Positions 2,286-54,106 of a stretch of DNA of 64,000 nt are shown here, in pieces; position 1 is the first letter of the stretch, and the number at the start of each line of letters is the position of its first letter. The position numbers and the translations under genes were made by a program. The stretch comes from Escherichia virus TH15. The stretch lies in sequence record MT446392.1; one strand, 5' to 3'. The notes under the pieces were generated by a model. It searched no databases, had not been told where the DNA came from, and saw only the letters and a program-made list of their open reading frames with translations.

Positions 2286-2711
2286 ATGAACTTTCTGACC
2301 CTGACCTCTGCATTCTCTGTTACCCGCATCACTAACAAAATGGTTGCTGATGAAGTATGTGAAATCTGCATTCGTGAAGATGCACTTATCCATCTGACTT
2401 CAACCCAAATTGTTGCCATCGCCAAGTCCCTTAATTCTGAACTGAAGGTAAACACCAAACAGTCAAAAGAATCCATCATTGAATTAATCCAAGCTGAAAT
2501 GATTGAATTCCCAATTGAAGAAGTTAAAGAAGAAAAAATCCAGTCCAAATCTGGTAACGCCCGTGACATTTGCTTCCAGGCATTTGCAGAAATTGATATG
2601 AATGATAATGCAGCTCGTCGCGCTCTGATTGATGACCTGGTTACTACCCATGATATCAAAAAGACTGTTGTTCAGTCTTATGCTTCCAACTTCCGCAAAG
2701 CTCAAAAATAA
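2286..2711 (+). CDS. hypothetical protein (paralog of 2795..3238)
   Basis: 141 aa; C-terminal NxAARRALID...VQSYASNFRK shared with next gene. Confidence 0.6.
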   Translation: MNFLTLTSAFSVTRITNKMVADEVCEICIREDALIHLTSTQIVAIAKSLNSELKVNTKQSKESIIELIQAEMIEFPIEEVKEEKIQSKSGNARDICFQAFAEIDMNDNAARRALIDDLVTTHDIKKTVVQSYASNFRKAQK

Positions 2712-2722
2712 TTGAGAAAAGT

Positions 2723-2752
2723 GTTTTACTTCCAAGTGGGATAGTGTATAAT
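2723..2752 (+). promoter_or_regulatory. T4-type early promoter
   Basis: -35 GTTTTACT, -10 TATAAT, followed by conserved leader. Confidence 0.55.
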
Positions 2753-2794
2753 TATCCCATACTGAGTTACCAAATAAACAAACGGGATAATAAA

Positions 2795-10148: not shown

Positions 10149-10904
10149 ATGAATTATCTAAAAATATATGAATCTTTAATAGTATCTGCTATTAAAAGAC
10201 CTCTTACACAAGGATACACCGAAAAACATCATATTTTACCGAAATCGATGGGTGGTAATGATTCTATTGATAATTTAGTTACCCTTACCGCCCGTGAACA
10301 TTTTATTGCACACTTATTATTGGCAAGAATTTTTAAGAATCGCGAAATGTGGTCCGCTGCATATATGATGGCTTCAACAAGTCTAACTAACTCGGATAGA
10401 CATAGATGCTCGTCACATTTATATGAATTATTGCGTAAACAAGCGTCGGTATATAATTCAGGTGAAAATTCTCCAAATTGGGGAATAAAACGTTCTGAAG
10501 AAACACGATTAAAAATGTCAATTTCAAAAATGGGTATCAGGAATCCAATGTACGGTATTCCACAATGTTTGGAACACTCTCATAAAATTAGCCTTGGTGT
10601 TACCGAAGCTTTTAAAAATCCAGAAATGAAAGAACGCCACCGTCAAAGTGTTTCTGGAGAGAATAATGGGTTTTATGGAAAAAAACATTCCGAAAAAAGT
10701 TTGGAAAAACAGCGGAATACAAAACGGAAAGGATTTCCTTGGGACAATTATTTGGAATTGTACCCAATTTGGGTTTCATTAAATTGCCCCAAGCATCCAA
10801 CATTCACAAATGAACTTGTTAAATTGGGATACCCCAAAAAGAAGCTTGTTCGAATAGTGGAAGAGTTTAAAAATGAATATATTCGAAATGCTACGCATAG
10901 ATGA
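10149..10904 (+). CDS. HNH homing endonuclease
   Basis: HNH motif [31 protein letters not shown]; inserted between nudE and e. Confidence 0.8.
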
Positions 10905-32095: not shown

Positions 32096-32653
32096 ATGAA
32101 CGAAATTAAATTAACCAAGAATAACTATGTAAATAATAAAGAGCTTCTGAAAGCTATTTCGGAGTGGAAACAGAAGCTGAATGCGAACACCGACCCAAAT
32201 AAAATTATTCGCCAGAACGATGTTATTGGTCTGGCAATTATGCTTATAGCCGAAGGTCTTAGCAAACGTTTCAACTTTTCAGGATATACCCAATCTTGGA
32301 AGCAGGAAATGATAGCGGACGGAATTGAGGCCGCAATAAAAGGTCTTCATAACTTCGACGAAACAAAATACGATAATCCACATGCTTACATAACAATGGC
32401 TTGCTTCAATGCTTTCGTTCAGCGTATCAAAAAAGAACGTAAAGAAATGGCAAAGAAATATAGCTACTTCGTCCATAACGTGTACGATTCACGTGACGAC
32501 GATATGGTGGCTCTGGCTGACGAAACATTTATCCAGGACATCTATGACAAAATGACACAGTACGAATCCTCCTTAGTTAAAGCGCCAGGGTCTGATAAGA
32601 GCGCCAAAGATAAAGAAGGTGATTTGGATTTTTTATATGGAACATCAATTTGA
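32096..32653 (+). CDS. 55: late-transcription sigma factor gp55
   Basis: [16 protein letters not shown]...[19 protein letters not shown] matches T4 gp55. Confidence 0.9.
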
Positions 32654-32870
32654 TATTACCGATTTTTTAGATAAAATCGAGGAAGACTTTACAGCGCTCC
32701 CATATTTCATTAAACTTTATCTGCGAGACATAAAAGGTCTTCCAATTGATATCGACCCTTTAAACGTCCGGAATCTGGAATTTACTTCACCGGATAATAA
32801 CGTTGATTACCGTTATCATGTGGATAATGCTAATCTATATTTTACAATTGAGTTAACTCCCAAGGATTAA
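32637..32870 (+). CDS. hypothetical protein
   Basis: ATG 32637 overlapping end of 55. Confidence 0.45.
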
Positions 32871-32871
32871 T

Positions 32872-33183
32872 ATGCAAGCTCCAGATATTTCTCAACTGAC
32901 CGATAAGCAGATTGAAGAAGCACAGGAACGTCTCGAAGAAGCGAACGCACTCGAAGCTACCAGCCAGGCAGCAAAGATTCTGAAAAAGAATGCTCGTGAA
33001 ATTGAACGCCTGAATAAGCATGCTCAAGGGGCAGTGCTGGAAAACAATTTTGAAGCATACAAATATGCTTTAGTTAAACTGCGTGGAATTTACCGCCAAC
33101 CAGTTACGGAAGACCTGATTAAGTTGATGTGGGAAACTACTCGCAAGCAAATTTGGGAAATCGTAAATGGCATTAGTAAATAA
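32872..33183 (+). CDS. hypothetical coiled-coil protein
   Basis: 103-aa ORF. Confidence 0.5.
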   Translation: MQAPDISQLTDKQIEEAQERLEEANALEATSQAAKILKKNAREIERLNKHAQGAVLENNFEAYKYALVKLRGIYRQPVTEDLIKLMWETTRKQIWEIVNGISK

Positions 33184-33367
33184 ACCTTTTAAACGGCTTC
33201 TTGTTGGAGCCGCTTTCAGACTTCGCTCATATGGTAATATCTGTATTAAGCAGACTGAAACCGAATACAAAATGATTGGCCAGTATTCTGACGGTATTTT
33301 TCAGATTGAGCCAGTAGCGAAGGTGTGGGTTGATTCACATCAACTTAAGAAATGGTGGCAAAGGTGA
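33167..33367 (+). CDS. hypothetical protein
   Basis: 66-aa ORF. Confidence 0.35.
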   Translation: MALVNKPFKRLLVGAAFRLRSYGNICIKQTETEYKMIGQYSDGIFQIEPVAKVWVDSHQLKKWWQR

Positions 33368-33459
33368 TAACATGGACGGCGGGCTAATGAAAGACGAACA
33401 TCCAGATTTTTAAGAGGTCATATGAATGACGAGTACGAAAAAGTTTAAGAGACTACGTT

Positions 33460-33633
33460 ATGATGAATTCGACGGATTTTGATAAGATTAAATCTGACAA
33501 AAATGAGATGATGCTTCAATTTGAAGCCGCTCGTATTAAAGCAGAAAATGAAGGTACTATTACCTATAAACCCATCAAGTTCAAGTCTTCTCATGAACCT
33601 CTGTATGGTGTATTAATTGGAAAGGAAGCCTAG
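33460..33633 (+). CDS. hypothetical small protein (57 aa)
   Basis: ATGATG start, weak SD; stop inside terminator hairpin. Confidence 0.3.
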   Translation: MMNSTDFDKIKSDKNEMMLQFEAARIKAENEGTITYKPIKFKSSHEPLYGVLIGKEA

Positions 33634-33646
33634 TGCTTCCTTTTTT
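33623..33646 (+). terminator. rho-independent terminator
   Basis: Stem GGAAGC/GCTTCC then T6. Confidence 0.6.
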
Positions 33647-33670
33647 GCTTTATAGTCGGGATGATAAAAT
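33644..33670 (+). promoter_or_regulatory. T4 middle-type promoter (MotA box)
   Basis: TTTGCTTTA, 12-nt spacer, -10 TAAAAT; upstream of gene 47. Confidence 0.5.
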
Positions 33671-33690
33671 GAACCAACTGAGGAGAACAT

Positions 33691-33834
33691 ATGGAATTAT
33701 TTTTAGGATATGTCGTGTTATTCATGGCATTCTACACATTCACACGAACTTGTTGGATAGGATTCTTTTCTACTCCTGACGGGTTCATCTCATTAATTTT
33801 ATTTTGCATTGCGATAACGGCGCTTGGCTTATGA
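33691..33834 (+). CDS. hydrophobic small membrane protein (47 aa)
   Basis: ATG after TGAGGAGAACAT; ATGA overlap with gene 47. Confidence 0.4.
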   Translation: MELFLGYVVLFMAFYTFTRTCWIGFFSTPDGFISLILFCIAITALGL

Positions 33835-36779: not shown

Positions 36780-36802
36780 GCCTCTTATTGAGGCTTCATT
36801 TT
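36779..36802. terminator. bidirectional terminator hairpin between convergent genes
   Basis: Stem GAGCCTC/GAGGCT(T)C with T-rich flank. Confidence 0.5.
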
Positions 36803-37501
36803 GCAGTTATCAAAATGCCAACGTTTCATATTAGCTGGTGTACCGACTACATTACAGTGTGGACACTGAATTTTGGGGTCCACCTTTTTCTTCCGGTTTG
36901 GATTGGATTTGCAGAATTGTCGGTGAGTGGATATAACACACTTTTTACCTTCAATACCACAAAATTCACAAGTTAAAATTTCATGTTTAGCTTGTTTTAA
37001 TCCTACTGAAATTTTTTGCTTTCGTTCTTCTGAAATAGTATGAACAACCTTGTTTGGACCTTTGGAACAGTTATCAAAATGCCAACGATTCATATTGCCA
37101 ACGAGACCGGTTTTTCCACAATGTGGACATTCAACTCTCGGTTTTAATTTGGCAGATTCTGACATTTTCTTTCTGGTTTCATCGGAGAAAATTTTATTTT
37201 GTTGAGCTTCCAAGTTTTTACGACGAAGCCATCCAAATAATTTGTTTTTGCTTCTGTCGGTGTTTGGTGCAGAAACTGTCATCATGCGTGCGGCATAGAC
37301 CAAAGAAGCATTATTTGGATGCATTTTGACCAACAGTTGATGACAAACGAAATGTTCCTCGGGAGTTAAATCAACAAGATTTGAAGCGTCGTCTGCCCCA
37401 CCCATACAACGGGGTATAATGTGATGACTTTCAGAGTATGTGGTTAATTTGCGATTCAATGCTCTGCTAATAAGCTTTTGGTAAATGATGTTATAATTCA
37501 T
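36785..37501 (-). CDS. HNH homing endonuclease with zinc-finger repeats
   Basis: SESHHIIPRCMGGADDASNLVDLTPEEHFVCH plus repeated CPHC...WHFDNC; start at internal ATG with AAGGG SD. Confidence 0.7.
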   Translation of the reverse strand: MNYNIIYQKLISRALNRKLTTYSESHHIIPRCMGGADDASNLVDLTPEEHFVCHQLLVKMHPNNASLVYAARMMTVSAPNTDRSKNKLFGWLRRKNLEAQQNKIFSDETRKKMSESAKLKPRVECPHCGKTGLVGNMNRWHFDNCSKGPNKVVHTISEERKQKISVGLKQAKHEILTCEFCGIEGKKCVISTHRQFCKSNPNRKKKVDPKIQCPHCNVVGTPANMKRWHFDNCKMKPQ

Positions 37502-37541
37502 ATCAGACCCTTGTTTGATACTGCAACGGATAATATTATTT

Positions 37542-37733
37542 ATGAGCAATTTTTTAACCGGGCAGCATTTACTGGCTGTCCCCGAAATTAAACGATATGT
37601 GTTAGTTAATACCTTTTCGAAAGATGAACACCTAGTTACTGAACGTGACTTACAAAACGCTTTCGGTGAAGAATATGTTAAAATAATCGCGAACAGACAC
37701 AAAGCCTGGTTCGCATATGAATACTTTGATTAA
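37542..37733 (+). CDS. hypothetical protein (uncertain)
   Basis: 63-aa ORF in divergent intergenic region; weak SD. Confidence 0.3.
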   Translation: MSNFLTGQHLLAVPEIKRYVLVNTFSKDEHLVTERDLQNAFGEEYVKIIANRHKAWFAYEYFD

Positions 37734-37756: not shown

Positions 37757-38164
37757 ATGAACAACGTAACTGCTAAAGATATCCAAGTTAAAACCATCCG
37801 CACCGACGCTAACCCACATAACCAAAACCGCATCCGTAAATCCTGGGTCCTGGCATGTGATGAAGTATCTGCCACCCGTCTGAAATCACTTCCTCAAGAA
37901 GTTAAATTTATGTTGTATGGTGTTATTGATACTGATGTATCTGATAAGTGGATTGAACTGATGCAACGTCATTACACCGAATCTCTGGCAGCTGGTGCTA
38001 AACTGGTTATCGACCGTGACGGCTCCGAACGTCTAGAAGATGATTACTGTGTTGACTTCGATGACCACCTGGTCCAAGCTGGTTCTATTATTGCTGCGCA
38101 ACTTCCAGAGTATATTGAATCTCTTCCGGAAGCTATCCGCAAACAAATGGCAGTTGTTGCGTGA
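37757..38164 (+). CDS. rpbA: RNA polymerase-binding protein RpbA-like
   Basis: Position between 46 and 45 as in T4, similar size; not sequence-verified. Confidence 0.45.
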   Translation: MNNVTAKDIQVKTIRTDANPHNQNRIRKSWVLACDEVSATRLKSLPQEVKFMLYGVIDTDVSDKWIELMQRHYTESLAAGAKLVIDRDGSERLEDDYCVDFDDHLVQAGSIIAAQLPEYIESLPEAIRKQMAVVA

Positions 38165-39048
38165 ATTTGATTTATAAAATAACCTTTATAACAAGGGAAC
38201 AAAATAACGAATTCCCTTGTTATTATATTGGTTCAAAGGTTGATGCGACATTTAACGGTCAAAATATTCTCGACAAAAATAATAAAATTTATACAGGTTC
38301 TCCGAATTCAAAATACACTAAGCTGTATAATGAATTGATTGATAGAGGTGACTATATTGTTACTATCATTGGAGAAACAAAGCAGGACCCAAGAAAAATA
38401 GAAAATATTTTTCAAATGTCAGTTAAAGCTGTAACCAATGAGAAGTACTTTAATAAAACGTATGCTCACGACCAAAGCCGGTATGATGCTCCTGGATATG
38501 CTCCATACCGAAACTTGAAAACAGGTAAAGTCGTTAAATTGCATCCATCTGAACTTACATCTGATTATGTTGGTGTTCGTAAAGACTGCTCAATTTCGGA
38601 TAAGCACATTCAAGCAATTAAAGACTTTCAAAAAGAATATTGGACTGCCGAAGCTCGACAAGCAAGGTCTATTGAAGTCAAAAATCGTTATAAAGATGCC
38701 GAGTATGCTTTAAAATTCAAAGTTATAATGAATACATCTGAAGTATACGAAAAATATTTAAAATCAATTACTGAATATTGGAATAATTCAGATAATAGAA
38801 TAAAGGCTTCAAAACGAGCAACTGAAAGAAATGCTAGTCCTGAGTTTAAAGAAAAATTTAGGAAATCCAAAGCAAGGGGAACCTGGTTGCAGTATGAAGA
38901 TGAACTTAAAACATTGTGGAATGCTTTAGGTCAACCGGGGTATATTAAGTTTAGAAAACACGCCATTGAACATGGGTTTAATGATGAAAATTATCAGGGT
39001 GCAATCCGGTCCTGGTCAAATTATTATGTTAATAGGAAAATGAAATGA
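38161..39048 (+). CDS. GIY-YIG homing endonuclease-like protein
   Basis: N-terminal IYKITFITREQNNEFPCYYIGS motif; GTG/TTG start; inserted between rpbA and 45. Confidence 0.65.
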   Translation: MNLIYKITFITREQNNEFPCYYIGSKVDATFNGQNILDKNNKIYTGSPNSKYTKLYNELIDRGDYIVTIIGETKQDPRKIENIFQMSVKAVTNEKYFNKTYAHDQSRYDAPGYAPYRNLKTGKVVKLHPSELTSDYVGVRKDCSISDKHIQAIKDFQKEYWTAEARQARSIEVKNRYKDAEYALKFKVIMNTSEVYEKYLKSITEYWNNSDNRIKASKRATERNASPEFKEKFRKSKARGTWLQYEDELKTLWNALGQPGYIKFRKHAIEHGFNDENYQGAIRSWSNYYVNRKMK

Positions 39049-41998: not shown

Positions 41999-43522
41999 AT
42001 GCAAGAATTTTATTTAACTATCGAACAAATCGGTGACAACCTGCTCGAACGGTACATTGACAAGAATGGTCATGAACGTGTTCGTGAAATCCCTTATGCT
42101 CCATGCTTGTTTATGCATGCTCGCGAAGACCAGGCTGCAAAGTATACAGACATCTATAATAAAGGTTGTGTGAAAAAAGAATTCGATTCCATGCGTGATG
42201 CATCCCAGTGGATGAAGCGCATGAACGATATGGGCCTCGAAGCTATGGGTATGGACGATTTCAAACTCGCGTACCTGAGCGACCGTTACCCACATGAAAT
42301 CAAATACGATTCAAGTAAAATCCGTGTGGCTAACTTCGATATCGAGGTGACATCTCCTGATGGGTTCCCTGAGCCGTCTGAAGCACGTCACCCTATCGAT
42401 GCCCTGACGCACTATGATTCGGTAGACGATAAATTCTATGTCTTTGACCTTTTGAGCTCGCCATACGCCACTGTGGAGCAATGGTCTATTGATATTGCTG
42501 CTAAGCTGCAGGAAGATGGCGGTGATGAAGTCCCCGAAGAAATCCTGGAAAAAATTGTTTATATGGCTTTCGATTCAGAAGAAGAAATGCTCCAGCAGTA
42601 TTTGGTATTCTGGAACGAGAAAACTCCGGTTATGTTAACTGGTTGGAACATCGAGAAATTTGATATTCCGTATATCTACAACCGCATTAAAAATGTATTT
42701 GGTGAAGCTACGGCCAAACGTCTGAGCCCACATCGTCGTACAAAAGTTAAAGTCATTAACAACGGCTTTGGTGAAGAACAAGAAATCATTCAGATTCTGG
42801 GTATCTCTGTTCTGGATTATCTGGACCTGTACAAAAAGTTCAGCTTCACAAACCAACCGTCTTACTCGTTGGACTATGTTGCGGAATCTGAGCTGGGTGT
42901 TGGTAAACTTCCGTATGATGGCCCGATTTCTAAATTACGTGAATCCAATCACCAGCGATACATCAGCTATAACATCATTGACGTTTATCGTGTTGTGCAG
43001 ATTGACCGTAAGCGACAGTTCATTAACCTGAGCCAATCGATGGGTTATTATGCAAAGATGCAGATTCAGTCTGTATTCAGCCCAATCAAAACTTGGGATG
43101 CGATTATCTTTAACAGTCTGAAGACTCAAAACAAGGTTATCCCTGAAACCAAATCACATGTTCGTCAATCGTTCCCTGGTGCATTTGTTAAGGAACCGAT
43201 TCCGAACGCATACAAATATGTAATGAGCTGTGACTTAACATCTCTGTATCCGAGCATCATCCGACAGATTAACATCAGTCCAGAAACGATTGCCGGGTCA
43301 TTTGCACCAGCCCAGATGCACGAATACATCGCAGGAACTGCTGACCGTCCATCTGATGCATTTAGTTGTGCGCCAAATGGTATGATGTATTTTAAAGATG
43401 TTGCGGGTATTATTCCGACAGAAGTTGAGAAAGTTTTTAATCAACGAAAAACCGAAAAGAAAAAGATGTTGGCGGCACAACGTAATAGTGAATTGATTAA
43501 AGAAATTTTACATGGAAAATAA
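41999..43522 (+). CDS. 43: DNA polymerase gp43, N-terminal fragment
   Basis: 507 aa: 3'-5' exonuclease region and pol motif A (DLTSLYPSII); ends where the endonuclease gene begins. Confidence 0.9.
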   Translation: MQEFYLTIEQIGDNLLERYIDKNGHERVREIPYAPCLFMHAREDQAAKYTDIYNKGCVKKEFDSMRDASQWMKRMNDMGLEAMGMDDFKLAYLSDRYPHEIKYDSSKIRVANFDIEVTSPDGFPEPSEARHPIDALTHYDSVDDKFYVFDLLSSPYATVEQWSIDIAAKLQEDGGDEVPEEILEKIVYMAFDSEEEMLQQYLVFWNEKTPVMLTGWNIEKFDIPYIYNRIKNVFGEATAKRLSPHRRTKVKVINNGFGEEQEIIQILGISVLDYLDLYKKFSFTNQPSYSLDYVAESELGVGKLPYDGPISKLRESNHQRYISYNIIDVYRVVQIDRKRQFINLSQSMGYYAKMQIQSVFSPIKTWDAIIFNSLKTQNKVIPETKSHVRQSFPGAFVKEPIPNAYKYVMSCDLTSLYPSIIRQINISPETIAGSFAPAQMHEYIAGTADRPSDAFSCAPNGMMYFKDVAGIIPTEVEKVFNQRKTEKKKMLAAQRNSELIKEILHGK

Positions 43523-44210
43523 ATTGCATTTTGTGTATAAAATTACAAATAACATTAATGGTAAAATTTACATCGGTGTTCACAGCACCGATGATATTAA
43601 TGATGGATATTTGGGCAAAGGTACTTTAATTCAGAAAGCTATTAAAAAATATGGGAAATCTAATTTTAAAAAGGAAATTTTGGAATTTTTCGAGGACCGC
43701 ACTTCAGCCTTTGACAAAGAGCGAGAGCTTGTAACCAGAGAATTTGTCAGTTTGACAACAAACTATAATTTAAAAACTGGCGGCGAAGGTGGTGCAATGT
43801 ATGGTAAAACCAATCCGATGTATGGTCGAACATATAGGAAGTCGGAATCAGAGAAGACCCAAATTTCGTTGCGATTTAAAAATGTTCCCAAAACCAACCA
43901 GCACAAACAAAACCTATCCAATTCATTACTCGGTAAACCCAGACCGGACATCGCTGAGAGACAGCGCGGATTGTTACCCTGGAATGTTAATTCTATTCGC
44001 AATAACAAAACCAGACTAAGAAAATTCGCCGACCTGGATATTATTTTCGATTATTGGTCTAGTCATAAATGTGGTGTTAAAGCATTAGCGAATTGGTATC
44101 AACTGGCGACGTATAATGAATTAGCATCCGTTATGCGATTCATTAAAAAGTATGGTGACCCGCGACTGAATGGTGATTGGAAAAAATTTAAGGCTGACTA
44201 TGAATATTGA
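43512..44210 (+). CDS. GIY-YIG homing endonuclease inserted in gene 43
   Basis: N-terminal HFVYKITNNINGKIYIGVHS GIY-YIG motif; overlaps both polymerase ORFs. Confidence 0.75.
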   Translation: MENKLHFVYKITNNINGKIYIGVHSTDDINDGYLGKGTLIQKAIKKYGKSNFKKEILEFFEDRTSAFDKERELVTREFVSLTTNYNLKTGGEGGAMYGKTNPMYGRTYRKSESEKTQISLRFKNVPKTNQHKQNLSNSLLGKPRPDIAERQRGLLPWNVNSIRNNKTRLRKFADLDIIFDYWSSHKCGVKALANWYQLATYNELASVMRFIKKYGDPRLNGDWKKFKADYEY

Positions 44211-45375
44211 TTATAATGCTGATTTTACAGAAGAACAAATCGAATACTTAAAAACTTTGTCTAAAGATGAATTGGAACACCATTTATACAATTCTCAAAT
44301 GGCTGAAGTAGCTGCAAACACCGCGCAGATTAACCGTAAACTGCTTATCAATAGCTGTTATGGTGCTCTGGGCAATATCTGGTTCCGTTACTTTGACCTG
44401 CGAAATGCAACTGCGATTACATCTTTCGGGCAACTTGCATTGCAGTGGATTGAGCGTAAAGTTAACGAATACTTCGATAGTGTTTGTGGTACAAGTGGTG
44501 AGACTTACGTATTCTATGGCGATACTGACTCCATTTATATCCAGTGCGATAACCTGATTAAAAAGGTTGGTGGTGAATCTAAATTCCGCGATACAAACCA
44601 CCTGGTTGACTTCATGGACAAGTTTGCAAAAGACCGTCTGGAACCGGCAATTGATAAAGCTTTCCGTGAACTGGCCGAATACATGAACAATAAACAGCAC
44701 CTTATGTTTATGGACCGTGAAGCGATTGCATGTCCTCCGCTGGGTTCTAAAGGCGTGGGTGGATTCTGGACGGCGAAGAAGCGTTATGCGTTGAACGTGT
44801 ATGATATGGAAGGCACACGATATGCTGTTCCGAAACTGAAAATTATGGGTCTGGAAACTCAAAAGTCGAGCACTCCAAAAGCATGTCAGAAAGCTCTGAA
44901 AGAATGTATCCGTCGCATGCTGCAAGAAGGTGAAGAATCTCTGCAGACATACTTCAAGGAATTCAATAAGGAATTTAATGAGCTTAACTACATGACCATC
45001 GCAGGTGTATCATCGGTTAACAACATCCAGAAATATAATGAGGGCGGTTTCCCTGGATTTAAGTGCCCGGCTCATATCAAAGGTGTGCTTGCATATATGC
45101 GTGCAACTAAAGGGCTGAAGACTGTTCCGCAAATCATGGAAGGGGAAAAGGTGTATGTGCTTCCTCTTAAAGTTGGTAATCCGTTTGGCGAAACCGTGAT
45201 TGCGTGGCCATCAGGGATTGAACTCCCGATTGAAATTCGTGACCAAGTCTTGCAGTGGATGGACTACAACACACTGTTCCAGAAGACTTTTGTTAAGCCA
45301 TTGACAGGGTTCTCTGAAGCAGCTAAGGTTGATTACGAGAAAAAAGCATCTCTTTTTGATATGTTTGATTTTTAA
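44200..45375 (+). CDS. 43: DNA polymerase gp43, C-terminal fragment
   Basis: 391 aa: pol motif B KLLINSCYGALG and motif C YGDTDS; 507+391=898 aa, the length I recall for T4 gp43. Confidence 0.9.
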   Translation: MNIDYNADFTEEQIEYLKTLSKDELEHHLYNSQMAEVAANTAQINRKLLINSCYGALGNIWFRYFDLRNATAITSFGQLALQWIERKVNEYFDSVCGTSGETYVFYGDTDSIYIQCDNLIKKVGGESKFRDTNHLVDFMDKFAKDRLEPAIDKAFRELAEYMNNKQHLMFMDREAIACPPLGSKGVGGFWTAKKRYALNVYDMEGTRYAVPKLKIMGLETQKSSTPKACQKALKECIRRMLQEGEESLQTYFKEFNKEFNELNYMTIAGVSSVNNIQKYNEGGFPGFKCPAHIKGVLAYMRATKGLKTVPQIMEGEKVYVLPLKVGNPFGETVIAWPSGIELPIEIRDQVLQWMDYNTLFQKTFVKPLTGFSEAAKVDYEKKASLFDMFDF

Positions 45376-45377
45376 GT

Positions 45378-45407
45378 GTTTACAATGGCAAAGGATTGCC
45401 GTATGAT
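45378..45407 (+). promoter_or_regulatory. T4-type early promoter
   Basis: -35 GTTTACA, 17-nt spacer, -10 TATGAT. Confidence 0.5.
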
Positions 45408-45447
45408 TACTCCATCAATTACTGATGATTAACTTAAGGATATTAAA

Positions 45448-45690
45448 ATGGAAACATTAATTGCGGGTACTGTTGTTCTTGGTGCTGGTTCTTTCTTCTT
45501 GGCTGCACTGACCTATTTTCTACCGTGGATTATCGCGCTACTGCGTGGAACCAAAAGTAATTGCGGAATCTTCTTTGTTAACCTTCTGTTAGGTTGGACA
45601 ATGGTTGGGTGGTTTATTGCGTTTATTTGGGCACTCGTTGCTGAACGTAAATCAAACGCACAGTTAATTATCATCAAGGAAACCAAATGA
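45448..45690 (+). CDS. imm: small membrane protein, Imm-like
   Basis: 80 aa, two TM helices, adjacent to 43 as T4 imm; not sequence-verified. Confidence 0.45.
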   Translation: METLIAGTVVLGAGSFFLAALTYFLPWIIALLRGTKSNCGIFFVNLLLGWTMVGWFIAFIWALVAERKSNAQLIIIKETK

Positions 45691-45830
45691 AGATAATTAC
45701 AATTATTGTACTGATTGCATTTTTTAGTATGTCAATCTATTGGGCAATAATGACTCCGCATATGATTCCAACTTTAATTTTGGGTTGGATATTTTTGGGA
45801 CTCCAAGCCCGTTATGAATGTTTTAATTGA
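45687..45830 (+). CDS. hydrophobic small membrane protein (47 aa)
   Basis: ATGA overlap with imm-like gene; below track cutoff. Confidence 0.35.
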   Translation: MKIITIIVLIAFFSMSIYWAIMTPHMIPTLILGWIFLGLQARYECFN

Positions 45831-45840
45831 GGAAAATACA

Positions 45841-46344
45841 ATGAAAAAGTTAGCTATCGCAGCTGTTATGCTGCTATCTGGTTGTGCTTACCAGGGTGAT
45901 GTAGTTAATGTCAGTGAAATTGGTAAAGCGCGAATTGCTGCAGACCGTCAGGTGCATAATGGTTCCTTTGATTTCAAAGGTGGTACTGGGCTTATCTACA
46001 AACGCGACAATAGTCAGTGTGGAAATAACTGCGCGAAATATGCTCAACAAGAAATTGAGTACAAACGCGAGCAAGCTGCGAAGCATGATGAAGTAATCGC
46101 TAAATTAGAAGCAGAAACTAAGCGACAAAATGACTTGGATACTGTTAACCAGATTTCACAGGTCTGCATGTCTTACATCAATATGCAGATAAACATCATG
46201 CGCGCGGAAGCTTATCAGGCAGCGGAGACTGGTTCTCCAAAAGCCAATGAGTATCGCGATATGTATCAGCGTTCTGCTCAAAATCGTCTGAGCTATATTA
46301 ATAAATGTGTGGCTAAAGAGAAAGCCCGCCAAGGTATTAACTAA
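45841..46344 (+). CDS. putative lipoprotein
   Basis: ATG 45841 after TGAGGAAAA; signal peptide with lipobox LLSGC. Confidence 0.6.
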   Translation: MKKLAIAAVMLLSGCAYQGDVVNVSEIGKARIAADRQVHNGSFDFKGGTGLIYKRDNSQCGNNCAKYAQQEIEYKREQAAKHDEVIAKLEAETKRQNDLDTVNQISQVCMSYINMQINIMRAEAYQAAETGSPKANEYRDMYQRSAQNRLSYINKCVAKEKARQGIN

Positions 46345-46348
46345 CATT

Positions 46349-46376
46349 AATTGCTCTAAAAATACAGTGATATAAT
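46349..46376 (+). promoter_or_regulatory. T4 middle-type promoter (MotA-box-like) for uvsX
   Basis: ATTGCTCTA, 13-nt spacer, -10 TATAAT. Confidence 0.5.
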
Positions 46377-46429
46377 TATCCTATCTTAAACCTGTGAGAA
46401 AAATATAATGGTGCCTATGGAAAAAATGA

Positions 46430-47608
46430 ATGTCTATTGCAGATTTGAAATCCCGTTTGATTAAAGCTTCTACATCCAAAATGACCGCGACTCTTACCAA
46501 GTCCAAGTTTTTTAATGATAAAGATGTAGTTCGTACAAAAATCCCGATGCTGAACATTGCAATCAGCGGTGCACTAGATGGTGGTATGCAGTCAGGTTTG
46601 ACTATTTTTGCTGGTCCGTCAAAACACTTTAAATCCAATATGGGTTTAACGATGGTCTCTGCATATATGAACAAATACCCCGAAGCAATCTGTTTGTTCT
46701 ATGATTCAGAATTTGGTATCACAGAAGCCTATCTGCGTGCAATGAAAGTAGACCCGGAACGTGTTATTCATACACCAATCCAGTCGGTTGAACAATTGAA
46801 AGTTGATATGGTTAACCAGCTTGAAGCAATTGAGCGTGGTGAAAAAGTCATTATCTTTATTGACTCAATCGGTAACATGGCGTCGAAAAAAGAAACAGAA
46901 GATGCGATGAACGAAAAAGTCGTTGGTGATATGACTCGCGCTAAATCCCTGAAATCTCTGTTCCGTATTGTTACCCCATATTTTAGTATCAAGGATATTC
47001 CTTGTGTCGCGGTTAACCATACAATTGAGACGATTGAGATGTATAGCAAAACCGTTATGACCGGTGGTACAGGTGTTATGTATTCTGCGGACACCGTATT
47101 CATTATCGGCAAACGCCAGATTAAAGAAACCGGTAAAGAGCTTGAAGGTTTCCAATTTGTACTGAACGCCGAAAAATCTCGTATGGTCAAAGAGAAAAGT
47201 AAATTCTTCATTGATGTAAAATTCGATGGTGGTATTGACCCGTATTCTGGCCTGCTTGATATGGCAATGGAAATTGGATTTGTGGTGAAGCCGAAAGTTG
47301 GTTGGTATAACCGTGAATATCTTGATGTTGAGACCGGTGAAATGGTCCGCGAAGAAAAATCATGGCGAGCAAAAGATACTAACTGCACTGAATTCTGGGG
47401 CCCGCTGTTCAAGCACGAACCTTTCCGTGATGCAATCAAACGTCATTACCAACTGGGTGCAATCGATAGCAATGCTGTTGTTGATGCCGAAGTTGATGAG
47501 CTTATTAGTTCGAAAGTTGAAAAATACTCTGCACCAGAAGGCAAATCAAAACCATCTGCGGCAGACATCGAAAACGATTTAGATATGATGGAAGACCTTG
47601 ATGAGTGA
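46430..47608 (+). CDS. uvsX: recombinase UvsX (RecA-like)
   Basis: 392 aa; long identical stretches to T4 UvsX (KSRLIKASTS, FAGPSK, KSKFFIDVKFDGGIDPYSGLLDMA). Confidence 0.95.
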   Translation: MSIADLKSRLIKASTSKMTATLTKSKFFNDKDVVRTKIPMLNIAISGALDGGMQSGLTIFAGPSKHFKSNMGLTMVSAYMNKYPEAICLFYDSEFGITEAYLRAMKVDPERVIHTPIQSVEQLKVDMVNQLEAIERGEKVIIFIDSIGNMASKKETEDAMNEKVVGDMTRAKSLKSLFRIVTPYFSIKDIPCVAVNHTIETIEMYSKTVMTGGTGVMYSADTVFIIGKRQIKETGKELEGFQFVLNAEKSRMVKEKSKFFIDVKFDGGIDPYSGLLDMAMEIGFVVKPKVGWYNREYLDVETGEMVREEKSWRAKDTNCTEFWGPLFKHEPFRDAIKRHYQLGAIDSNAVVDAEVDELISSKVEKYSAPEGKSKPSAADIENDLDMMEDLDE

Positions 47609-47942
47609 TATCGATTTATCTGATTTAGATAATTTCGAGAAAGATGCGGAGGGAGCTAAGGCTCCTTCTGTGCCTTACTACGAAAAAAGTTTGGAGATTA
47701 TCCGGCAATCCATGGGAACTGTACGACAGGAAATTCTGTTATCACTTCCCGATGGGTCCAGTCACATCGTGTACGTAACCGGAATTAAAATTGAACCATC
47801 TGGAAAAGTTTCAGTTGATTTCGGCACCCCTTCTGAAGACCGCAAAGCGGAGCTTGCAGTGCATGTAGAAAAGTGTGTTACAATGCAAATACAAGATGAA
47901 ATTGATAAGATTAAAATGAAAAAGAGGTGGTGGAAGTGGTAG
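47601..47942 (+). CDS. 40: gp40-like protein
   Basis: Size and position between uvsX and 41 as T4 gene 40; ATG 47601. Confidence 0.5.
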   Translation: MSDIDLSDLDNFEKDAEGAKAPSVPYYEKSLEIIRQSMGTVRQEILLSLPDGSSHIVYVTGIKIEPSGKVSVDFGTPSEDRKAELAVHVEKCVTMQIQDEIDKIKMKKRWWKW

Positions 47943-49366
47943 AAACTATTTTATCCCAGCTACTCTTTAACAAGGAATATTTTGTTAAAGTCTGGCCATA
48001 TCTGAATAATACATATTTTGAAAAGGGTCCTGCGAAGACCCTTTTTAATACGATTAACGAACATGTAAAAGAATATCAAGCAGTGCCAACTAAGACTGCA
48101 CTTGATATCGCGCTCGACGGTTCTGACCTTTCTGAAGTTGAATATGAAGGCACAAAGAAACTCTTAGGAGTCCTGGCCGATACTCCAGAAGACCAGGAAT
48201 GGTTGGTCAGAGAAACCGAGAAGTATGTACAGAAGTCTGCGATGTTCAATGCCACATCCAGGATTATCGAAATCCAGAGTAATGCCGAACTTCCGAAAGA
48301 TAAGCGTGATAAACGAATCCCGGATATCGGGGCTATCCCTGACATTATGCGCGATGCATTGTCTATTTGTTTTGACTCTGCTCTGGGCCATGACTGGTTA
48401 AACGATTACGAAGCTCGATTCCAGACTTATCTGAACAAATCGAAGAAAGTTCCGTTCCGTATTAACATCCTGAATAAAATTACGAAGGGTGGAGTTGAGT
48501 ACGGTACAGAGAACGTTTTACTAGCCGGGACAAACGTCGGGAAATCCCTTGGACTCTGTTCATTAGCCGCTGACTATCTTCAGACTGGTCATAACGTTCT
48601 TTATATAAGCATGGAAATGGCTGAAGAAGTATGTGCCAAACGTATTGATGCCAACTTGCTGGATGTGTCTCTGGATGATATTGATGAAGGTCATATATCA
48701 TGGGCGGAATATAAAGCTAAGATGGAAAAATGGCGTGCTTCCGGGACTCTCGGGACTCTGAAGATAAAACAATATCCAACTGGGGGCGCGCATGCGGATA
48801 CCTTCCGTGCATTACTGAACGAGTACAAACTGAAGCAAGGATTTGTACCAGATGTGATTATTGTTGACTACCTGGCAATCTGCGCAAGCTCAAGACTGAA
48901 AACGTTTACCGAAAACAGTTACGGCCTGATTAAGATGGTTGCAGAAGAACTTCGTGGTCTGGCGGTCGAGAAAAATGTGGTCCTATGGACCGCGGCGCAG
49001 ACAACCAGGGGCGCGAACGTTGCAGCTGAGATTGATATGGCTGACATCGCAGAATCCTTTGGTATTGCTCACACGGCTGACTTTATGTTGGGTGTTGTTG
49101 AGACCGAAGAATTCGCTCAAATGGGACTGCAGTTAATCAAACAGCTTAAGTCTCGTTATGGCGATAAGAACTACTATAATAAATTCAAGATGGGTGTTAA
49201 GAAAGGTAATCAACGCTGGTATGAGGTTGATGATGATTCAGCTCCTAAACAAGGCCCTACGGTGAAAGAAGCCACTGGTGAGATGAATCGTCAGGCTGAA
49301 ATGAATAGACAAACCAGGGTCAACAGGAGCGACCTGGATGACCTTGCCGCTCAAATGAAATTTTAA
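47936..49366 (+). CDS. 41: replicative DNA helicase gp41
   Basis: DnaB-like; Walker A AGTNVGKS; GTG at 47936 gives MVETILSQL matching T4 MVEIILSHL. Confidence 0.9.
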   Translation: MVETILSQLLFNKEYFVKVWPYLNNTYFEKGPAKTLFNTINEHVKEYQAVPTKTALDIALDGSDLSEVEYEGTKKLLGVLADTPEDQEWLVRETEKYVQKSAMFNATSRIIEIQSNAELPKDKRDKRIPDIGAIPDIMRDALSICFDSALGHDWLNDYEARFQTYLNKSKKVPFRINILNKITKGGVEYGTENVLLAGTNVGKSLGLCSLAADYLQTGHNVLYISMEMAEEVCAKRIDANLLDVSLDDIDEGHISWAEYKAKMEKWRASGTLGTLKIKQYPTGGAHADTFRALLNEYKLKQGFVPDVIIVDYLAICASSRLKTFTENSYGLIKMVAEELRGLAVEKNVVLWTAAQTTRGANVAAEIDMADIAESFGIAHTADFMLGVVETEEFAQMGLQLIKQLKSRYGDKNYYNKFKMGVKKGNQRWYEVDDDSAPKQGPTVKEATGEMNRQAEMNRQTRVNRSDLDDLAAQMKF

Positions 49367-49968: not shown

Positions 49969-50310
49969 ATGGCTTTTAATCCAGAAGACCGCGTAAAAGT
50001 AACAATCAAAGTGAGTGCTGTTGGCGTTCCATCTTTTGAGCGCTCAAGTATGTTCCATCCCGCAGGTATTCACTGGTATGTTCAGAAGACTGCTGATAAC
50101 TATAATGCGCTTGTTGAAGCTTTTGTTGATGACAAGCTAATTCATAAAGTAGACATGCGTAAGGGTACCGCATTGCGTAATCTGATTTTGACCGTTGAAG
50201 CGCAACTGTTAAATGAAGAAATCTGCCTTACTGATATTGAAGCAGCTCTTCATATTGCACGTGCTGAATATTACAACTTGACCGGTTTTTCAGTTGAAGG
50301 CGAAAAATAA
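49969..50310 (+). CDS. hypothetical protein
   Basis: 113 aa; paralogous core NALVEAFVDDKLIH. Confidence 0.5.
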   Translation: MAFNPEDRVKVTIKVSAVGVPSFERSSMFHPAGIHWYVQKTADNYNALVEAFVDDKLIHKVDMRKGTALRNLILTVEAQLLNEEICLTDIEAALHIARAEYYNLTGFSVEGEK

Positions 50311-53102: not shown

Positions 53103-53299
53103 GAAGGGATTCCGGTAAAGTAACCGATGATGGAATGGATATGCTCCATTGTGACCTGGGGTAAGATAACCCCTTGTGTTGCGGCGATAGGCACAACCAG
53201 TAAGTTCCATAGGAAAACATCAAGAGCTAAAAAACCCATGATAAGCTTCTTGTCTTTCTTACTGGTTAATTTCCATATCTGATAGAATAATGTTCCCAT
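53099..53299 (-). CDS. small hydrophobic membrane protein (antisense paralog B)
   Basis: Minus strand; start at internal ATG with GGTGGA SD; paralog of 53308..53505. Confidence 0.45.
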   Translation of the reverse strand: MGTLFYQIWKLTSKKDKKLIMGFLALDVFLWNLLVVPIAATQGVILPQVTMEHIHSIIGYFTGIPS

Positions 53300-53307
53300 A
53301 ATTCCAC

Positions 53308-53505
53308 CTATACAAGGCCGATTAATGCCAGTGAAACATCTACAACTGATTCGAAGGCAACGACTGGAAGCACAAGACCGTGCGCCAGTGCAATCGGTGC
53401 TACAATAAAGTTCCATAAAAGAACTATACCTAGCACAGAAAACGTCAGAATCATTCGCTTGCGACTGCCTTTGATGGCTTGAATTAAACTAGAAAGTTTT
53501 AGCAT
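53308..53505 (-). CDS. small hydrophobic membrane protein (antisense paralog A)
   Basis: Minus strand; strong SD AGGAGG 4 nt before ATG; 65 aa, two TM helices; no + strand ORF here. Confidence 0.5.
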   Translation of the reverse strand: MLKLSSLIQAIKGSRKRMILTFSVLGIVLLWNFIVAPIALAHGLVLPVVAFESVVDVSLALIGLV

Positions 53506-53524
53506 ACATCCTCCTTTCTTTTAT

Positions 53525-53551
53525 TTATGCTTCAACTCAATATGATATAAT
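53525..53551 (+). promoter_or_regulatory. T4 middle-type promoter (MotA box) for gene 56
   Basis: TTTATGCTTCA, 11-nt spacer, -10 TATAAT. Confidence 0.5.
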
Positions 53552-53587
53552 TAACATACAAACAACATGAATTGATAAGGAAAAATA

Positions 53588-54106
53588 ATGGCACATTTTA
53601 ATGAATGCAGTGGTCTGATTACTGGTGTTGATAAAGCTGAAGAAGCTTATTTTAATGCTCTGATTCACGAAGATAAAGACCCTCTGCAAGTTATGCTTGA
53701 TATGCAGAAATCATTGCAGGTTCGTCTGGCTAATGACCGCGAATATTGCTATCATCCAGATAAACTGGCCACTGCGGGTGATGTTGTTGCCTGGATGCGT
53801 GAACAAAAAGATTGTATTGATGACGAATTCCGTGAACTTCTGACATCCCTTGGTGAAATGTCCAAAGGTGAAAAAGATGCGTCGGCTGTGTGGAAAAAAT
53901 GGAAAGCTCGTTACCAAGAAGCTCAAGCCAAGCCAATTTCTGAAATGTCTCCTGAAGACCAGCTTGAAATTAAATTTGAACTAATTGACATTATGCACTT
54001 TGTATTCAACATGGCTATTGGCCTTAATATGTCAGCAGAAGAAATATTCAAGCTTTATTATCTGAAGAATAAAGCCAACTTTGAGCGTCAAGACAACGGT
54101 TATTAA
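53588..54106 (+). CDS. 56: dCTP pyrophosphatase gp56
   Basis: MAHFNECSGLITGVDKA...REYCYHPDKLATAGDVVAWMREQKDCIDDEFRELLTSLGEMS near-identical to T4 gp56. Confidence 0.9.
   Translation: MAHFNECSGLITGVDKAEEAYFNALIHEDKDPLQVMLDMQKSLQVRLANDREYCYHPDKLATAGDVVAWMREQKDCIDDEFRELLTSLGEMSKGEKDASAVWKKWKARYQEAQAKPISEMSPEDQLEIKFELIDIMHFVFNMAIGLNMSAEEIFKLYYLKNKANFERQDNGY

What the first reader, a model, noticed from the sequence alone, without database searches (positions are those of the whole stretch)
45376..46429. T4 gene 42 and beta-gt are missing from their syntenic slot although dCTPase gp56 is present
In T4 the interval between gene 43 and uvsX holds imm, 42 (dCMP hydroxymethylase) and beta-glucosyltransferase. 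Here it holds only an imm-like gene, a 47-aa membrane peptide and a lipoprotein. Likewise nothing alpha-gt-sized lies between 55 and 47 (32654..33830). Yet gp56 dCTPase, which excludes cytosine from DNA in T4, is encoded at 53588. The DNA modification genes are therefore relocated, replaced or absent. The lipoprotein next to imm is a candidate superinfection-exclusion factor.
Basis: partly seen in the sequence, partly recalled or inferred. Interest (0 to 1): 0.45.

Follow-up and report, generated by a model that had tools for sequence, protein, structure and literature searches.

The report
T4-like phage likely using 5-methylcytosine
This T4-like coliphage really does lack the usual genes for modifying its DNA cytosines, and its close relatives point to a replacement: their thymidylate synthase carries the one amino-acid change known to turn that enzyme into a maker of 5-methylcytosine nucleotides.

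Summary
Between gene 43 (stop 45375) and uvsX (start 46430) the window holds only imm, a 47-aa membrane peptide (T4 42.1-like) and a lipoprotein. No gene 42, beta-gt or alpha-gt homologue occurs anywhere in the 64 kb. gp56 is intact, 81% identical to T4.

The phage is a Gaprivervirus. This gap is genus-wide and two papers already call it a puzzle. Sister Dhakaviruses (JS98, VR5) fill the slot with a 5-gene cassette: a 5-hydroxy-dCMP synthase plus arabinosylation genes.

The complete SP18 genome has one thymidylate-synthase-family gene, "td". In all six Gapriverviruses checked, td has Asp at E. coli position 177, with Leu143 and Asp169 kept. That is the published signature of a dCMP methylase. 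114 of the 120 nearest homologue clusters have Asn. Two other T4-like phages reported to lack gene 42, Morganella MP1 and Acinetobacter 133, show the same Asp.

Published restriction data say VR7 DNA has modified, unglycosylated cytosines. I therefore infer 5-methylcytosine replaces cytosine, as in phage Xp12. The td gene lies outside the window and no chemistry was done.

A two-gene module (2286-3238) co-occurs with Asp177 enzymes in four phage lineages. The lipoprotein's role remains unknown.

The parts
44170..45375 (+). C-terminal ORF of the split DNA polymerase gene 43; left border of the slot
   Evidence: 94% to SP18 gp43 C-terminal part and 60% to T4 gp43
45379..45407 (+). Promoter-like site TTTACA-17-TATGAT upstream of imm
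   Evidence: Consensus scan, 10 of 12 matches; the number of such sites is not above the shuffles
45448..45690 (+). imm, superinfection immunity membrane protein
   Evidence: PF14373 7.6e-18; phrog_1039; 51% to T4 Imm and 68% to JS98 Imm
45687..45830 (+). 47-aa hydrophobic peptide, homologue of T4 42.1 / JS98 gp044; its start overlaps the imm stop (ATGA)
   Evidence: phrog_3610 1.2e-26; 59% to JS98 gp044; 57% over 30 aa to the T4 gap between 42 and imm; VR7 annotates it as 42.1
45841..46344 (+). Lipoprotein of unknown function, 167 aa from the likely start: lipobox LLSGC, conserved CGNNC, helical C-terminal half
   Evidence: Sequence; phrog_1754, unknown function; 52% to JS98 gp043; AF2 model helical with pLDDT ~90 for residues 100-160 and the only fold match is the JS10 orthologue
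46345..46429 (+). 85-bp junction where T4 has 42/beta-gt/segA and JS98 has gp042-gp038. Its left end resembles the sequence after JS98 gp043; from GTGATATAAT onward it matches the JS98 uvsX leader
   Evidence: 93% over 60 nt to the JS98 uvsX upstream region; JS98 carries a similar AAAAATA-GTG-TATAAT motif on both sides of its cassette
46430..47608 (+). uvsX; right border of the slot
   Evidence: 99% to SP18 UvsX and 79% to T4 UvsX
32619..33779 (+). Empty alpha-gt slot between 55 and 47: only a-gt.5, a-gt.4, a-gt.3, a-gt.2 and 47.1 homologues
   Evidence: no alpha-gt hit in the window
53588..54106 (+). gene 56 dCTPase/dUTPase, intact
   Evidence: 81% to T4 gp56, 88% to VR7, 73% to SP18; phrog_173 NTP pyrophosphohydrolase 1.1e-40
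2286..2711 (+). First gene of a two-gene module (141 aa) that co-occurs with Asp177 thymidylate-synthase homologues; candidate accessory of 5mC genomes
   Evidence: phrog_9997; 99% to SP18, and no hit in the JS98 parts then fetched (14-80 kb) or in T4 14-44 kb; clear homologue RF1_59 in Erwinia phage RF1
2795..3238 (+). Second gene of the module (147 aa from the internal ATG): two three-helix domains joined by a Lys/Pro/Ala-rich linker; its C-terminal domain is shared with the first gene
   Evidence: phrog_18416; found in only 39 of 50,697 phage records: the Gapriverviruses plus partial records fPSFA and DCP80, then MP1, 133 and RF1; model; no PDB fold match

Best explanation
The window comes from a Gaprivervirus, a T-even-type coliphage. 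In this genus the slot between imm and uvsX has lost the cytosine-modification cassette. T4 has gene 42 plus beta-gt there. Dhaka- and Mosigviruses have a 5-hydroxy-dCMP synthase plus arabinosylation genes there.

The phage still removes cytosine with gp56, which converts dCTP and dCDP to dCMP. Its relatives also keep Alc, DenB, DenA, Ndd and the gp1 dNMP kinase.

The replacement base is most likely 5-methylcytosine. The genus's only thymidylate-synthase-family enzyme is the 'td' gene next to frd, outside this window. It carries Asp instead of Asn at E. coli position 177, which switches the substrate from dUMP to dCMP. It keeps Leu143 (methyl rather than hydroxymethyl product) and Asp169 (not a 5-hydroxylase).

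Inferred pathway: dCTP -> (gp56) dCMP -> (td-Asp177) 5-methyl-dCMP -> (gp1, host Ndk) 5-methyl-dCTP -> DNA. dTMP would come from host ThyA, or from deamination of 5-methyl-dC nucleotides by the phage Cd.

Shown: the empty slot, the absence of other family members in SP18, and the residue signature with its distribution. Inferred: the enzyme activity, the base in virion DNA, and that this particular phage carries the same td allele.
For: - Identity: about 96% to 32 Gaprivervirus records over 44000-48000.
- SP18, VR7 and the window share the order 43-imm-42.1-lipoprotein-uvsX.
- JS98 and VR5 carry gp038-gp042 in the slot. gp039 is a thymidylate-synthase homologue (E 3.6e-8 to T4 gp42) with Asn at position 169 and Glu at 143, the 5-hydroxy-dCMP synthase signature of Lee et al. 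2026 (PMC13326640).
- A six-frame profile search of all but the first 1.4 kb of SP18 finds one family member only, td, E 1.6e-172.
- td of SP18, VR7, TH57, ECML-359, P8 and CJ20 reads LPFDIGSY with MALPPCH and RSVDV. JS98 and T4 td read LPFNIASY.
- Among the 120 nearest homologue clusters, 114 have Asn and 5 have Asp: 4 Gaprivervirus-type plus one other T4-like contig.
- The Asp-type td occurs in 32 phage records. All 25 empty-slot records that were listed are among them.
- Morganella MP1 and Acinetobacter 133, which PMC8056088 also lists as lacking known cytosine-modifying enzymes (133 keeping Alc, DenB and dCTPase there; alc and denB are annotated in MP1), also have Asp177 with Leu143 and Asp169. 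Their enzymes are only 27-53% identical to each other and to TH57 td.
- Literature. Asn->Asp makes thymidylate synthase a dCMP methylase (Liu & Santi 1992, cited in PMC8670742). Asp177 homologues expressed with T4 gp1 put 5mdC into E. coli DNA, and 5mC phages need no second synthase (bioRxiv 10.1101/2024.12.05.627091). VR7 DNA 'has modified cytosines' and is unglycosylated; the legend labels the T4 mutant control hydroxymethylated but uses only the general wording for VR7 (PMC6326788 Fig. S4).
- gp56 alleles cross genus borders: window 88% to VR7 and 81% to T4; SP18 85% to JS98. This argues gp56 is an ordinary dCTPase.
Against: - td is not in the window. The source genome was not found in the phage collection, IMG/VR or the exact-protein index, so the allele of this very phage is unseen.
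- No nucleoside chemistry exists. The VR7 restriction data are qualitative.
- Whether gp56, Alc and DenB spare 5-methyl-C is untested. That gp56 cleaves dUTP but not dTTP suggests a C5 gate, but this rests on my own knowledge of T4 gp56.
- Fully 5mC DNA should be attacked by McrBC, Mrr and McrA. Yet Gaprivervirus RZ is recorded on E. coli K-12 MG1655, so an anti-restriction function must be assumed.
- The rule that residue 143 decides methyl versus hydroxymethyl is a correlation, not a proof.
Confidence: 0.66

Rival explanations
1. The td-Asp177 enzyme does not simply methylate. The virion base would be 5-hydroxymethylcytosine without sugar, or an undescribed cytosine derivative, perhaps finished by genus-specific genes of unknown function.
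For: VR7 DNA is described only as having 'modified cytosines'. The residue-143 rule is correlative. Gaprivervirus td differs from other T-even td at about 34 fixed positions, several near the active site: positions 149, 179 and 182 in E. coli numbering. A two-gene module of unknown function tracks Asp177 enzymes.
Against: Leu143, Asp169, the full C-terminus and the adjacent frd are all kept, as in true methyl-transferring synthases. The Fig. S4 legend labels the T4 mutant control hydroxymethylated but uses only the general wording 'modified cytosines' for VR7. Five of seven predicted Asp177 enzymes, and the Xp12 enzyme, made 5mdCMP. No glycosyl-, methyl- or carbamoyl-transferase domain was found in the window ORFs scanned.
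Confidence: 0.14
2. The DNA contains ordinary cytosine. gp56 serves mainly as a dUTPase, and Alc and DenB have drifted to other roles, as in the gene-42-less Krisch- and Pseudotevenviruses.
For: Gene-42-less T4 relatives with gp56 homologues exist and are scored as lacking cytosine replacement (PMC12115623 Table 4). BREX, which is blocked by glycosylation, restricts VR7 fully.
Against: Those genera lack alc and denB, whereas Gaprivervirus has both. VR7 DNA behaves as cytosine-modified. The window's gp56 is 81% identical to T4's, and gp56 alleles are shared with cytosine-replacing genera. This reading does not explain a genus-wide Asp177 in the only thymidylate-synthase homologue.
Confidence: 0.07
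3. In this particular phage, gene 42 or a 5-hydroxy-dCMP synthase, with transferases, has been moved to the ~106 kb not covered by the window, so its DNA is ordinary hmC or arabinosyl-5hoC.
For: Only 64 kb is visible. The genome is mosaic and full of homing endonucleases. Other genes have moved or are missing here: gp49, nrdD and nrdG are absent from their SP18 position, and gp49 sits near frd in P8.
Against: No such gene exists anywhere in SP18. The published genus-level table scores Gaprivervirus as lacking it. The modification cassette sits in this same slot in T4, JS98 and VR5.
Confidence: 0.05

Closest known systems
Xanthomonas phage Xp12 / Pseudomonas phage PaMx74 type 5-methylcytosine replacement (thymidylate-synthase homologue acting as dCMP methylase)
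   Same: A single thymidylate-synthase-family enzyme with Asp at position 177. The nucleotide is modified before polymerisation. A dCMP-deaminase-family gene is present. No second synthase is needed.
   Different: Here the enzyme is the orthologue of T4 td: 286 aa, 65% identical to T4 td over its full length, next to frd. It sits in a T-even genome that also has gp56, Alc, DenB, DenA, Ndd and gp1. The 5mC itself has not been demonstrated.
T4 hydroxymethylcytosine pathway (gp56, gp42, gp1, alpha-gt, beta-gt)
   Same: Same gene order, and the same gp56 (81%). The relatives have the same gp1, Alc, DenB, cd and frd. The imm and 42.1 neighbours of gene 42 are retained.
   Different: Gene 42 and both glucosyltransferases are absent. 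td carries Asn177->Asp instead.
RB69 / Dhakavirus 5-hydroxycytosine arabinosylation cassette (Lee et al., NAR 2026, PMC13326640)
   Same: It occupies the same imm-uvsX slot in the sister genus (JS98 gp038-042, VR5_042-046). The neighbouring lipoprotein and 42.1-like peptide are shared.
   Different: The whole 5-gene cassette is missing here. The junction is a single promoter-like sequence resembling both flanks of the JS98 cassette.
Lactobacillus casei thymidylate synthase N229D / E. coli N177D laboratory mutants
   Same: The same single residue change in an otherwise complete thymidylate synthase.
   Different: This is a natural allele, fixed in a phage genus, with about 34 further lineage-specific substitutions.

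Membership tests
T-even hmC system (T4 type) | dCMP hydroxymethylase gp42 (thymidylate-synthase homologue with Asp177 and an acidic residue at 143) | tested here: not met
   No hit in the window or in the SP18 genome.
T-even hmC system (T4 type) | alpha- and/or beta-glucosyltransferase | tested here: not met
   tblastn found nothing in the window or SP18. Both syntenic slots are empty.
T-even hmC system (T4 type) | dCTPase gp56 | tested here: met
   53588-54106, 81% to T4 gp56, full length.
5-hydroxycytosine / arabinosyl system (RB69, Dhakavirus) | 5-hydroxy-dCMP synthase: thymidylate-synthase homologue with Asp169->Asn | tested here: not met
   JS98 gp039 has no homologue in the window or SP18. 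Gaprivervirus td keeps Asp169.
5-hydroxycytosine / arabinosyl system (RB69, Dhakavirus) | Sugar-nucleotide and glycosyltransferase genes (JS98 gp038, gp040-042) | tested here: not met
   tblastn found nothing in the window or SP18.
5-methylcytosine-replacement phages (Xp12 type) | Thymidylate-synthase homologue with Asp at 177 and a hydrophobic residue at 143 | tested here: inconclusive
   Met in 6 of 6 Gapriverviruses checked and in all 4 Gaprivervirus-type protein clusters. The gene of this phage lies outside the window and could not be retrieved.
5-methylcytosine-replacement phages (Xp12 type) | Virion DNA has 5mC in place of C | not testable with these tools
   Only indirect evidence: VR7 DNA 'has modified cytosines', unglycosylated (PMC6326788 Fig. 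S4).
5-methylcytosine-replacement phages (Xp12 type) | Enzyme makes 5-methyl-dCMP from dCMP | not testable with these tools
   Inferred from the residue rules.
Imm superinfection immunity protein (PF14373) | Match to the family model above the curated cut-off | tested here: met
   64.6 bits against a cut-off of 27.9.
   MKKLAIAAVMLLSGC.
   No Pfam, NCBIfam or named PHROG family; the only fold match is the JS10 orthologue. The phenotype is not testable here.

The most novel reading that the evidence does not exclude
Gapriverviruses, together with Morganella phage MP1 and Acinetobacter phage 133, form an unrecognised class of T4-like phages. In this class, cytosine is fully replaced through a td-derived Asp177 enzyme, giving either 5mC or a still undescribed derivative built on it. 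The window's two-gene module (2286-3238) is found only in phage lineages with Asp177 enzymes, including the unrelated Erwinia phage RF1. It would be a dedicated accessory of such genomes, for example an inhibitor of methyl-dependent restriction or a modified-DNA-binding protein.
Probability: 0.2. Interest if true: 0.8.

Novelty: new variant of a known kind. Interest (0 to 1): 0.6.

Why it matters
Two papers (2021, 2025) leave open how Gapriverviruses can keep dCTPase, Alc and DenB without any known cytosine-modifying enzyme. One of them withholds a phage-therapy recommendation for the genus on that ground.

A conserved Asn177->Asp change in td gives a specific prediction that one LC-MS run can test: 5-methylcytosine DNA. 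I found no report of it for any T4-like phage in the paper library I could search.

If true, three consequences follow:
- T-even phages have used at least three chemistries (hydroxymethyl, hydroxy, methyl) on one cytosine-exclusion chassis.
- 'Thymidylate synthase' is mis-annotated in these genomes.
- These phages should be sensitive to methyl-dependent restriction and to BREX, but resistant to many type II enzymes.

The co-occurring two-gene module is a candidate new counter-defence factor.

Tried and rejected
- Gene 42 or transferases elsewhere in the window: tblastn and profile searches were negative. Pfam scans of 20 window ORFs showed no glycosyl- or methyltransferase.
- A hidden second thymidylate-synthase homologue in the genus: the six-frame HMM search of SP18 found only td.
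- A Gaprivervirus-specific enzyme outside the window: the SP18 versus JS98 comparison found only homing endonucleases and small ORFs.
- Retrieving this phage's own td: the gene-43 endonuclease marker has no match in the phage collection, IMG/VR or the exact-protein index.
- A group I intron to explain the split gene 43: no Rfam match.
- Function of the lipoprotein: only orthologues were found, and the AF2 model is half low-confidence with no informative fold match.
- Function of the 147-aa module protein: no family match and no significant PDB fold match; the best was a double homeodomain at E=1.2.
- Extending the module/Asp177 association to metagenomes: contigs are too short to hold both genes.
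- Two literature searches were poorly targeted and uninformative; one short-peptide search added nothing.
- No paper was found stating that Gapriverviruses contain 5mC. Subscription literature was not searchable.
Full report
**What is in the sequence**

The window is a T4-type early region read on the + strand. The order is 55 (32096-32653), 47, 46, 45, 44, 62, regA, gene 43 (41999-45375), then the flagged interval, then uvsX (46430-47608), 40, 41, 61 and 56 (53588-54106).

The flagged interval holds three genes.
- imm, 45448-45690 (PF14373).
- A 47-aa hydrophobic ORF, 45687-45830, whose start overlaps the imm stop.
- A lipoprotein ORF, 45814-46344. Its likely start is 45841, behind a GAGGA ribosome-binding site, with lipobox LLSGC.

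T4 gp42, beta-gt, alpha-gt and Dam give no tblastn hit better than E=1.1 anywhere in the 64 kb. Profile searches of all six frames find no thymidylate-synthase-family protein in the window. Between 55 and 47 there are only homologues of a-gt.5, a-gt.4, a-gt.3, a-gt.2 and 47.1. gp56 is full length and 81% identical to T4 gp56.

**Which phage, and what relatives have in the slot**

Megablast places the window in the genus Gaprivervirus. The closest records are TH57, ECML-359, vB_YenM_P8, SP18 and the VR phages at about 96% identity, and 32 records cover the region. SP18 and VR7 have the same order: 43, imm, 42.1, lipoprotein, uvsX.

T4 has 43, imm.1, imm, an unannotated 42.1-like ORF, 42, beta-gt, segA and uvsX.

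The sister genus Dhakavirus (JS98, VR5) has imm, gp044 and the lipoprotein gp043, followed by five extra genes, gp042 to gp038, before uvsX. None of those five has a homologue in the window or in SP18.
- JS98 gp039 is a divergent thymidylate-synthase homologue (E 3.6e-8 to T4 gp42).
- It has Asn at E. coli position 169, Glu at 143 and Asp at 177.
- Lee et al. (NAR 2026, PMC13326640) showed this signature marks 5-hydroxy-dCMP synthases, and named Dhakaviruses among the arabinosyl-5-hydroxycytosine phages.

So the slot is a modification cassette site, and it is empty in this genus.

The 85-bp junction (46345-46429) matches the JS98 uvsX leader at 93% from GTGATATAAT onward. Upstream of that it resembles the sequence after JS98 gp043. 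JS98 carries a similar promoter-like motif on both sides of its cassette. This fits loss or exchange of the cassette by recombination between repeated early-promoter sequences. That last step is inference.

**The puzzle is already published**

SP18's complete annotation has no gene 42 and no transferase. It does have 56, denA, denB, alc, ndd, gene 1, cd, td and frd. tblastn confirms the absence.

Nikulin et al. [quoted passage not shown]

Gordeeva et al. 2018 (PMC6326788) give restriction data. VR5, a Dhakavirus, has glycosylated DNA. VR7, a Gaprivervirus, 'has modified cytosines' in unglycosylated DNA. The legend labels the T4 mutant control hydroxymethylated but uses only the general wording for VR7.

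**The proposed answer**

A six-frame profile search of all but the first 1.4 kb of SP18 finds exactly one thymidylate-synthase-family gene, td (E 1.6e-172). I aligned it with JS98 td, T4 td (PDB 1TIS), T4 gp42 and JS98 gp039.
- SP18 td reads RSVDVFLGLPFDIGSY where JS98 and T4 td read ...PFNIASY.
- This puts Asp at E. coli position 177, with Leu143 (MALPPCH) and Asp169 kept.
- The same is true of td in VR7, TH57 (the closest relative of the window), ECML-359, P8 and CJ20. These include two alleles only 86% identical to each other.

In a search of 5.8 billion proteins, the 120 nearest clusters split as follows: 114 have Asn, 5 have Asp, and 1 did not match the motif pattern. Four of the five Asp clusters are Gaprivervirus-type. 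The fifth comes from another T4-like metagenomic contig with frd.2, frd.1 and frd upstream.

The Asp-type td occurs in 32 phage records. All 25 empty-slot records listed are among them.

Gaprivervirus td is a distinct lineage. It is 64-70% identical to other T-even td proteins, which are 72-98% identical to each other. It has about 34 fixed differences from them.

**Why Asp177 matters**

The published residue rules are as follows.
- Asn177->Asp converts thymidylate synthase into a dCMP methylase (Liu & Santi 1992; Hardy & Nalivaika 1992; cited in PMC8670742, and PMC13326640).
- An acidic residue at 143 correlates with hydroxymethyl products.
- Asp169->Asn correlates with 5-hydroxylation.

A 2024 preprint (10.1101/2024.12.05.627091) adds three points. 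Asp177 homologues expressed with T4 gp1 put 5-methyl-dC into E. coli DNA. The Xp12 enzyme does the same. 5mC phages make dTTP by deaminating 5-methyl-dC nucleotides, so they need no second synthase.

The Gaprivervirus gene set is gp56, td-Asp177, gp1, cd and frd. That is what such a pathway requires.

**Independent support**

The 2021 paper lists Morganella phage MP1 and Acinetobacter phage 133 as the other T4-like phages without known cytosine-modifying enzymes. It reports Alc, DenB and dCTPase homologues for 133, and alc and denB are annotated in MP1.

Their only annotated thymidylate synthases also have Asp177 with Leu143 and Asp169: MP1 reads GLNFDLIQ and Acj133 reads GKPFDIASY. These enzymes are only 27-53% identical to each other and to TH57 td.

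gp56 alleles also cross genus borders. The window's gp56 is 88% identical to VR7's and 81% to T4's, while SP18's is 85% identical to JS98's. This argues that gp56 is the same working dCTPase regardless of which C5 group the phage installs.

**Limits**

- td lies roughly 30 kb beyond the window.
- The source genome is not in the phage collection, IMG/VR or the exact-protein index. The allele of this phage is inferred from its genus.
- No chemistry was done.
- It is untested whether gp56, Alc and DenB spare 5-methyl-C.
- It is unknown how fully methylated DNA escapes McrBC and Mrr in K-12 hosts, on which Gaprivervirus RZ is recorded.

I put 0.66 on 5mC via td-Asp177. The rivals are another product of the same enzyme (0.14), plain cytosine (0.07), and relocated modification genes in the unseen part of the genome (0.05).

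**The three genes of the interval**

imm is a clear family member. The 47-aa peptide belongs to phrog_3610 and matches VR7 '42.1', JS98 gp044 and the T4 gap between 42 and imm.

The lipoprotein is the JS98 gp043 orthologue (52%, phrog_1754, unknown function).
- Residues just after the lipid-modified Cys resemble T4 Imm.1.
- It has a conserved CGNNC motif and a confident helical C-terminal half.
- It has no informative family or fold match.

A role in exclusion is possible from its position next to imm, but nothing else supports it.

**A further lead in the window**

ORFs 2286-2711 (141 aa) and 2795-3238 (147 aa) are paralogues. They share a C-terminal three-helix domain ending in VQSYASNFRK, and the second has a Lys/Pro/Ala-rich linker. 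They gave no hit in the JS98 parts then fetched (14-80 kb) or in T4 14-44 kb.

The 164-aa form occurs in only 39 of 50,697 phage records:
- the Gapriverviruses, plus partial records fPSFA and DCP80;
- Morganella MP1;
- Acinetobacter 133 (C-terminal domain only);
- Erwinia phage RF1, an unrelated PolA-type phage that has both paralogues.

RF1's thyA also has Asp177 (GLPHDILF), with a deaminase gene 4 kb away.

All four lineages that carry the module therefore have an Asp177 enzyme. No hit was seen in Xanthomonas or Pseudomonas phages at E<1e-5. The module's function is unknown, and no significant PDB fold match was found. A role tied to methylated genomes is a hypothesis only.

Noticed in passing
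window 41999-45375: DNA polymerase gene 43 is split into two ORFs (507 aa and 401 aa) by a free-standing GIY-YIG homing endonuclease gene (43512-44210, 45% to T4 SegA). No group I intron was detected by Rfam. None of the Gaprivervirus records matched in the phage collection has the insertion. This recalls the split gene 43 of Aeromonas phage Aeh1, a resemblance from my own memory and not tested here.
   Followed up: partly
window 2286-3238: A two-gene paralogous module (141 aa and 147 aa) shares a C-terminal domain. It occurs only in phage lineages whose thymidylate-synthase homologue has Asp177: Gaprivervirus, Morganella MP1, Acinetobacter 133 and Erwinia RF1. It is a candidate accessory of predicted 5mC genomes.
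   Followed up: partly
window 27967-29043: A 358-aa SegE-like GIY-YIG endonuclease (PF19835, 3e-33) sits where SP18 has gp49 (endonuclease VII), nrdD and nrdG. None of those three is found anywhere in the window. In phage P8 an endonuclease VII gene lies near frd instead.
   Followed up: partly
window 36785-37702 (- strand), 38161-39048, 10149-10904: Three more homing-endonuclease genes: one on the minus strand between 46 and 45.2 (phrog_655), one between rpbA and 45 (phrog_7504), and an ORF at 10149-10904 with tblastn similarity to the homing-endonuclease genes T4 mobC and an SP18 homologue. With the two above, the window holds at least five.
   Followed up: no
window 53588-54106: gp56 is mosaic across genera. 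The window's allele is 88% to VR7 and 81% to T4 but only 73% to SP18, while SP18's is 85% to JS98. VR7 carries segF next to 56. Homing-driven exchange would fit this pattern, but that mechanism is from my memory of T4 SegF and was not tested.
   Followed up: partly
window 46345-46429; L006 (JS98) flanks of gp042-gp038: The JS98 modification cassette is bracketed by two similar promoter-like sequences (AAAAATA..GTG.TATAAT). The window has one hybrid copy at the junction. This suggests cassette loss or exchange by recombination between repeated promoters.
   Followed up: partly
L017 (Logan SRR24146912 contig, 5.4 kb): Another T4-like lineage, known only from a metagenomic contig with frd.2, frd.1 and frd upstream, has a 292-aa td with Asp177. 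It shares many derived residues with Gaprivervirus td.
   Followed up: no
window 49969-50310: A 113-aa ORF next to dmd (phrog_23762) has weak similarity to Dmd over ~36 residues. It is absent from SP18 and JS98 at this position.
   Followed up: no
window 53103-53587: There is no dam methyltransferase between 61 and 56, where T4 has one. SP18 and JS98 likewise lack it.
   Followed up: no
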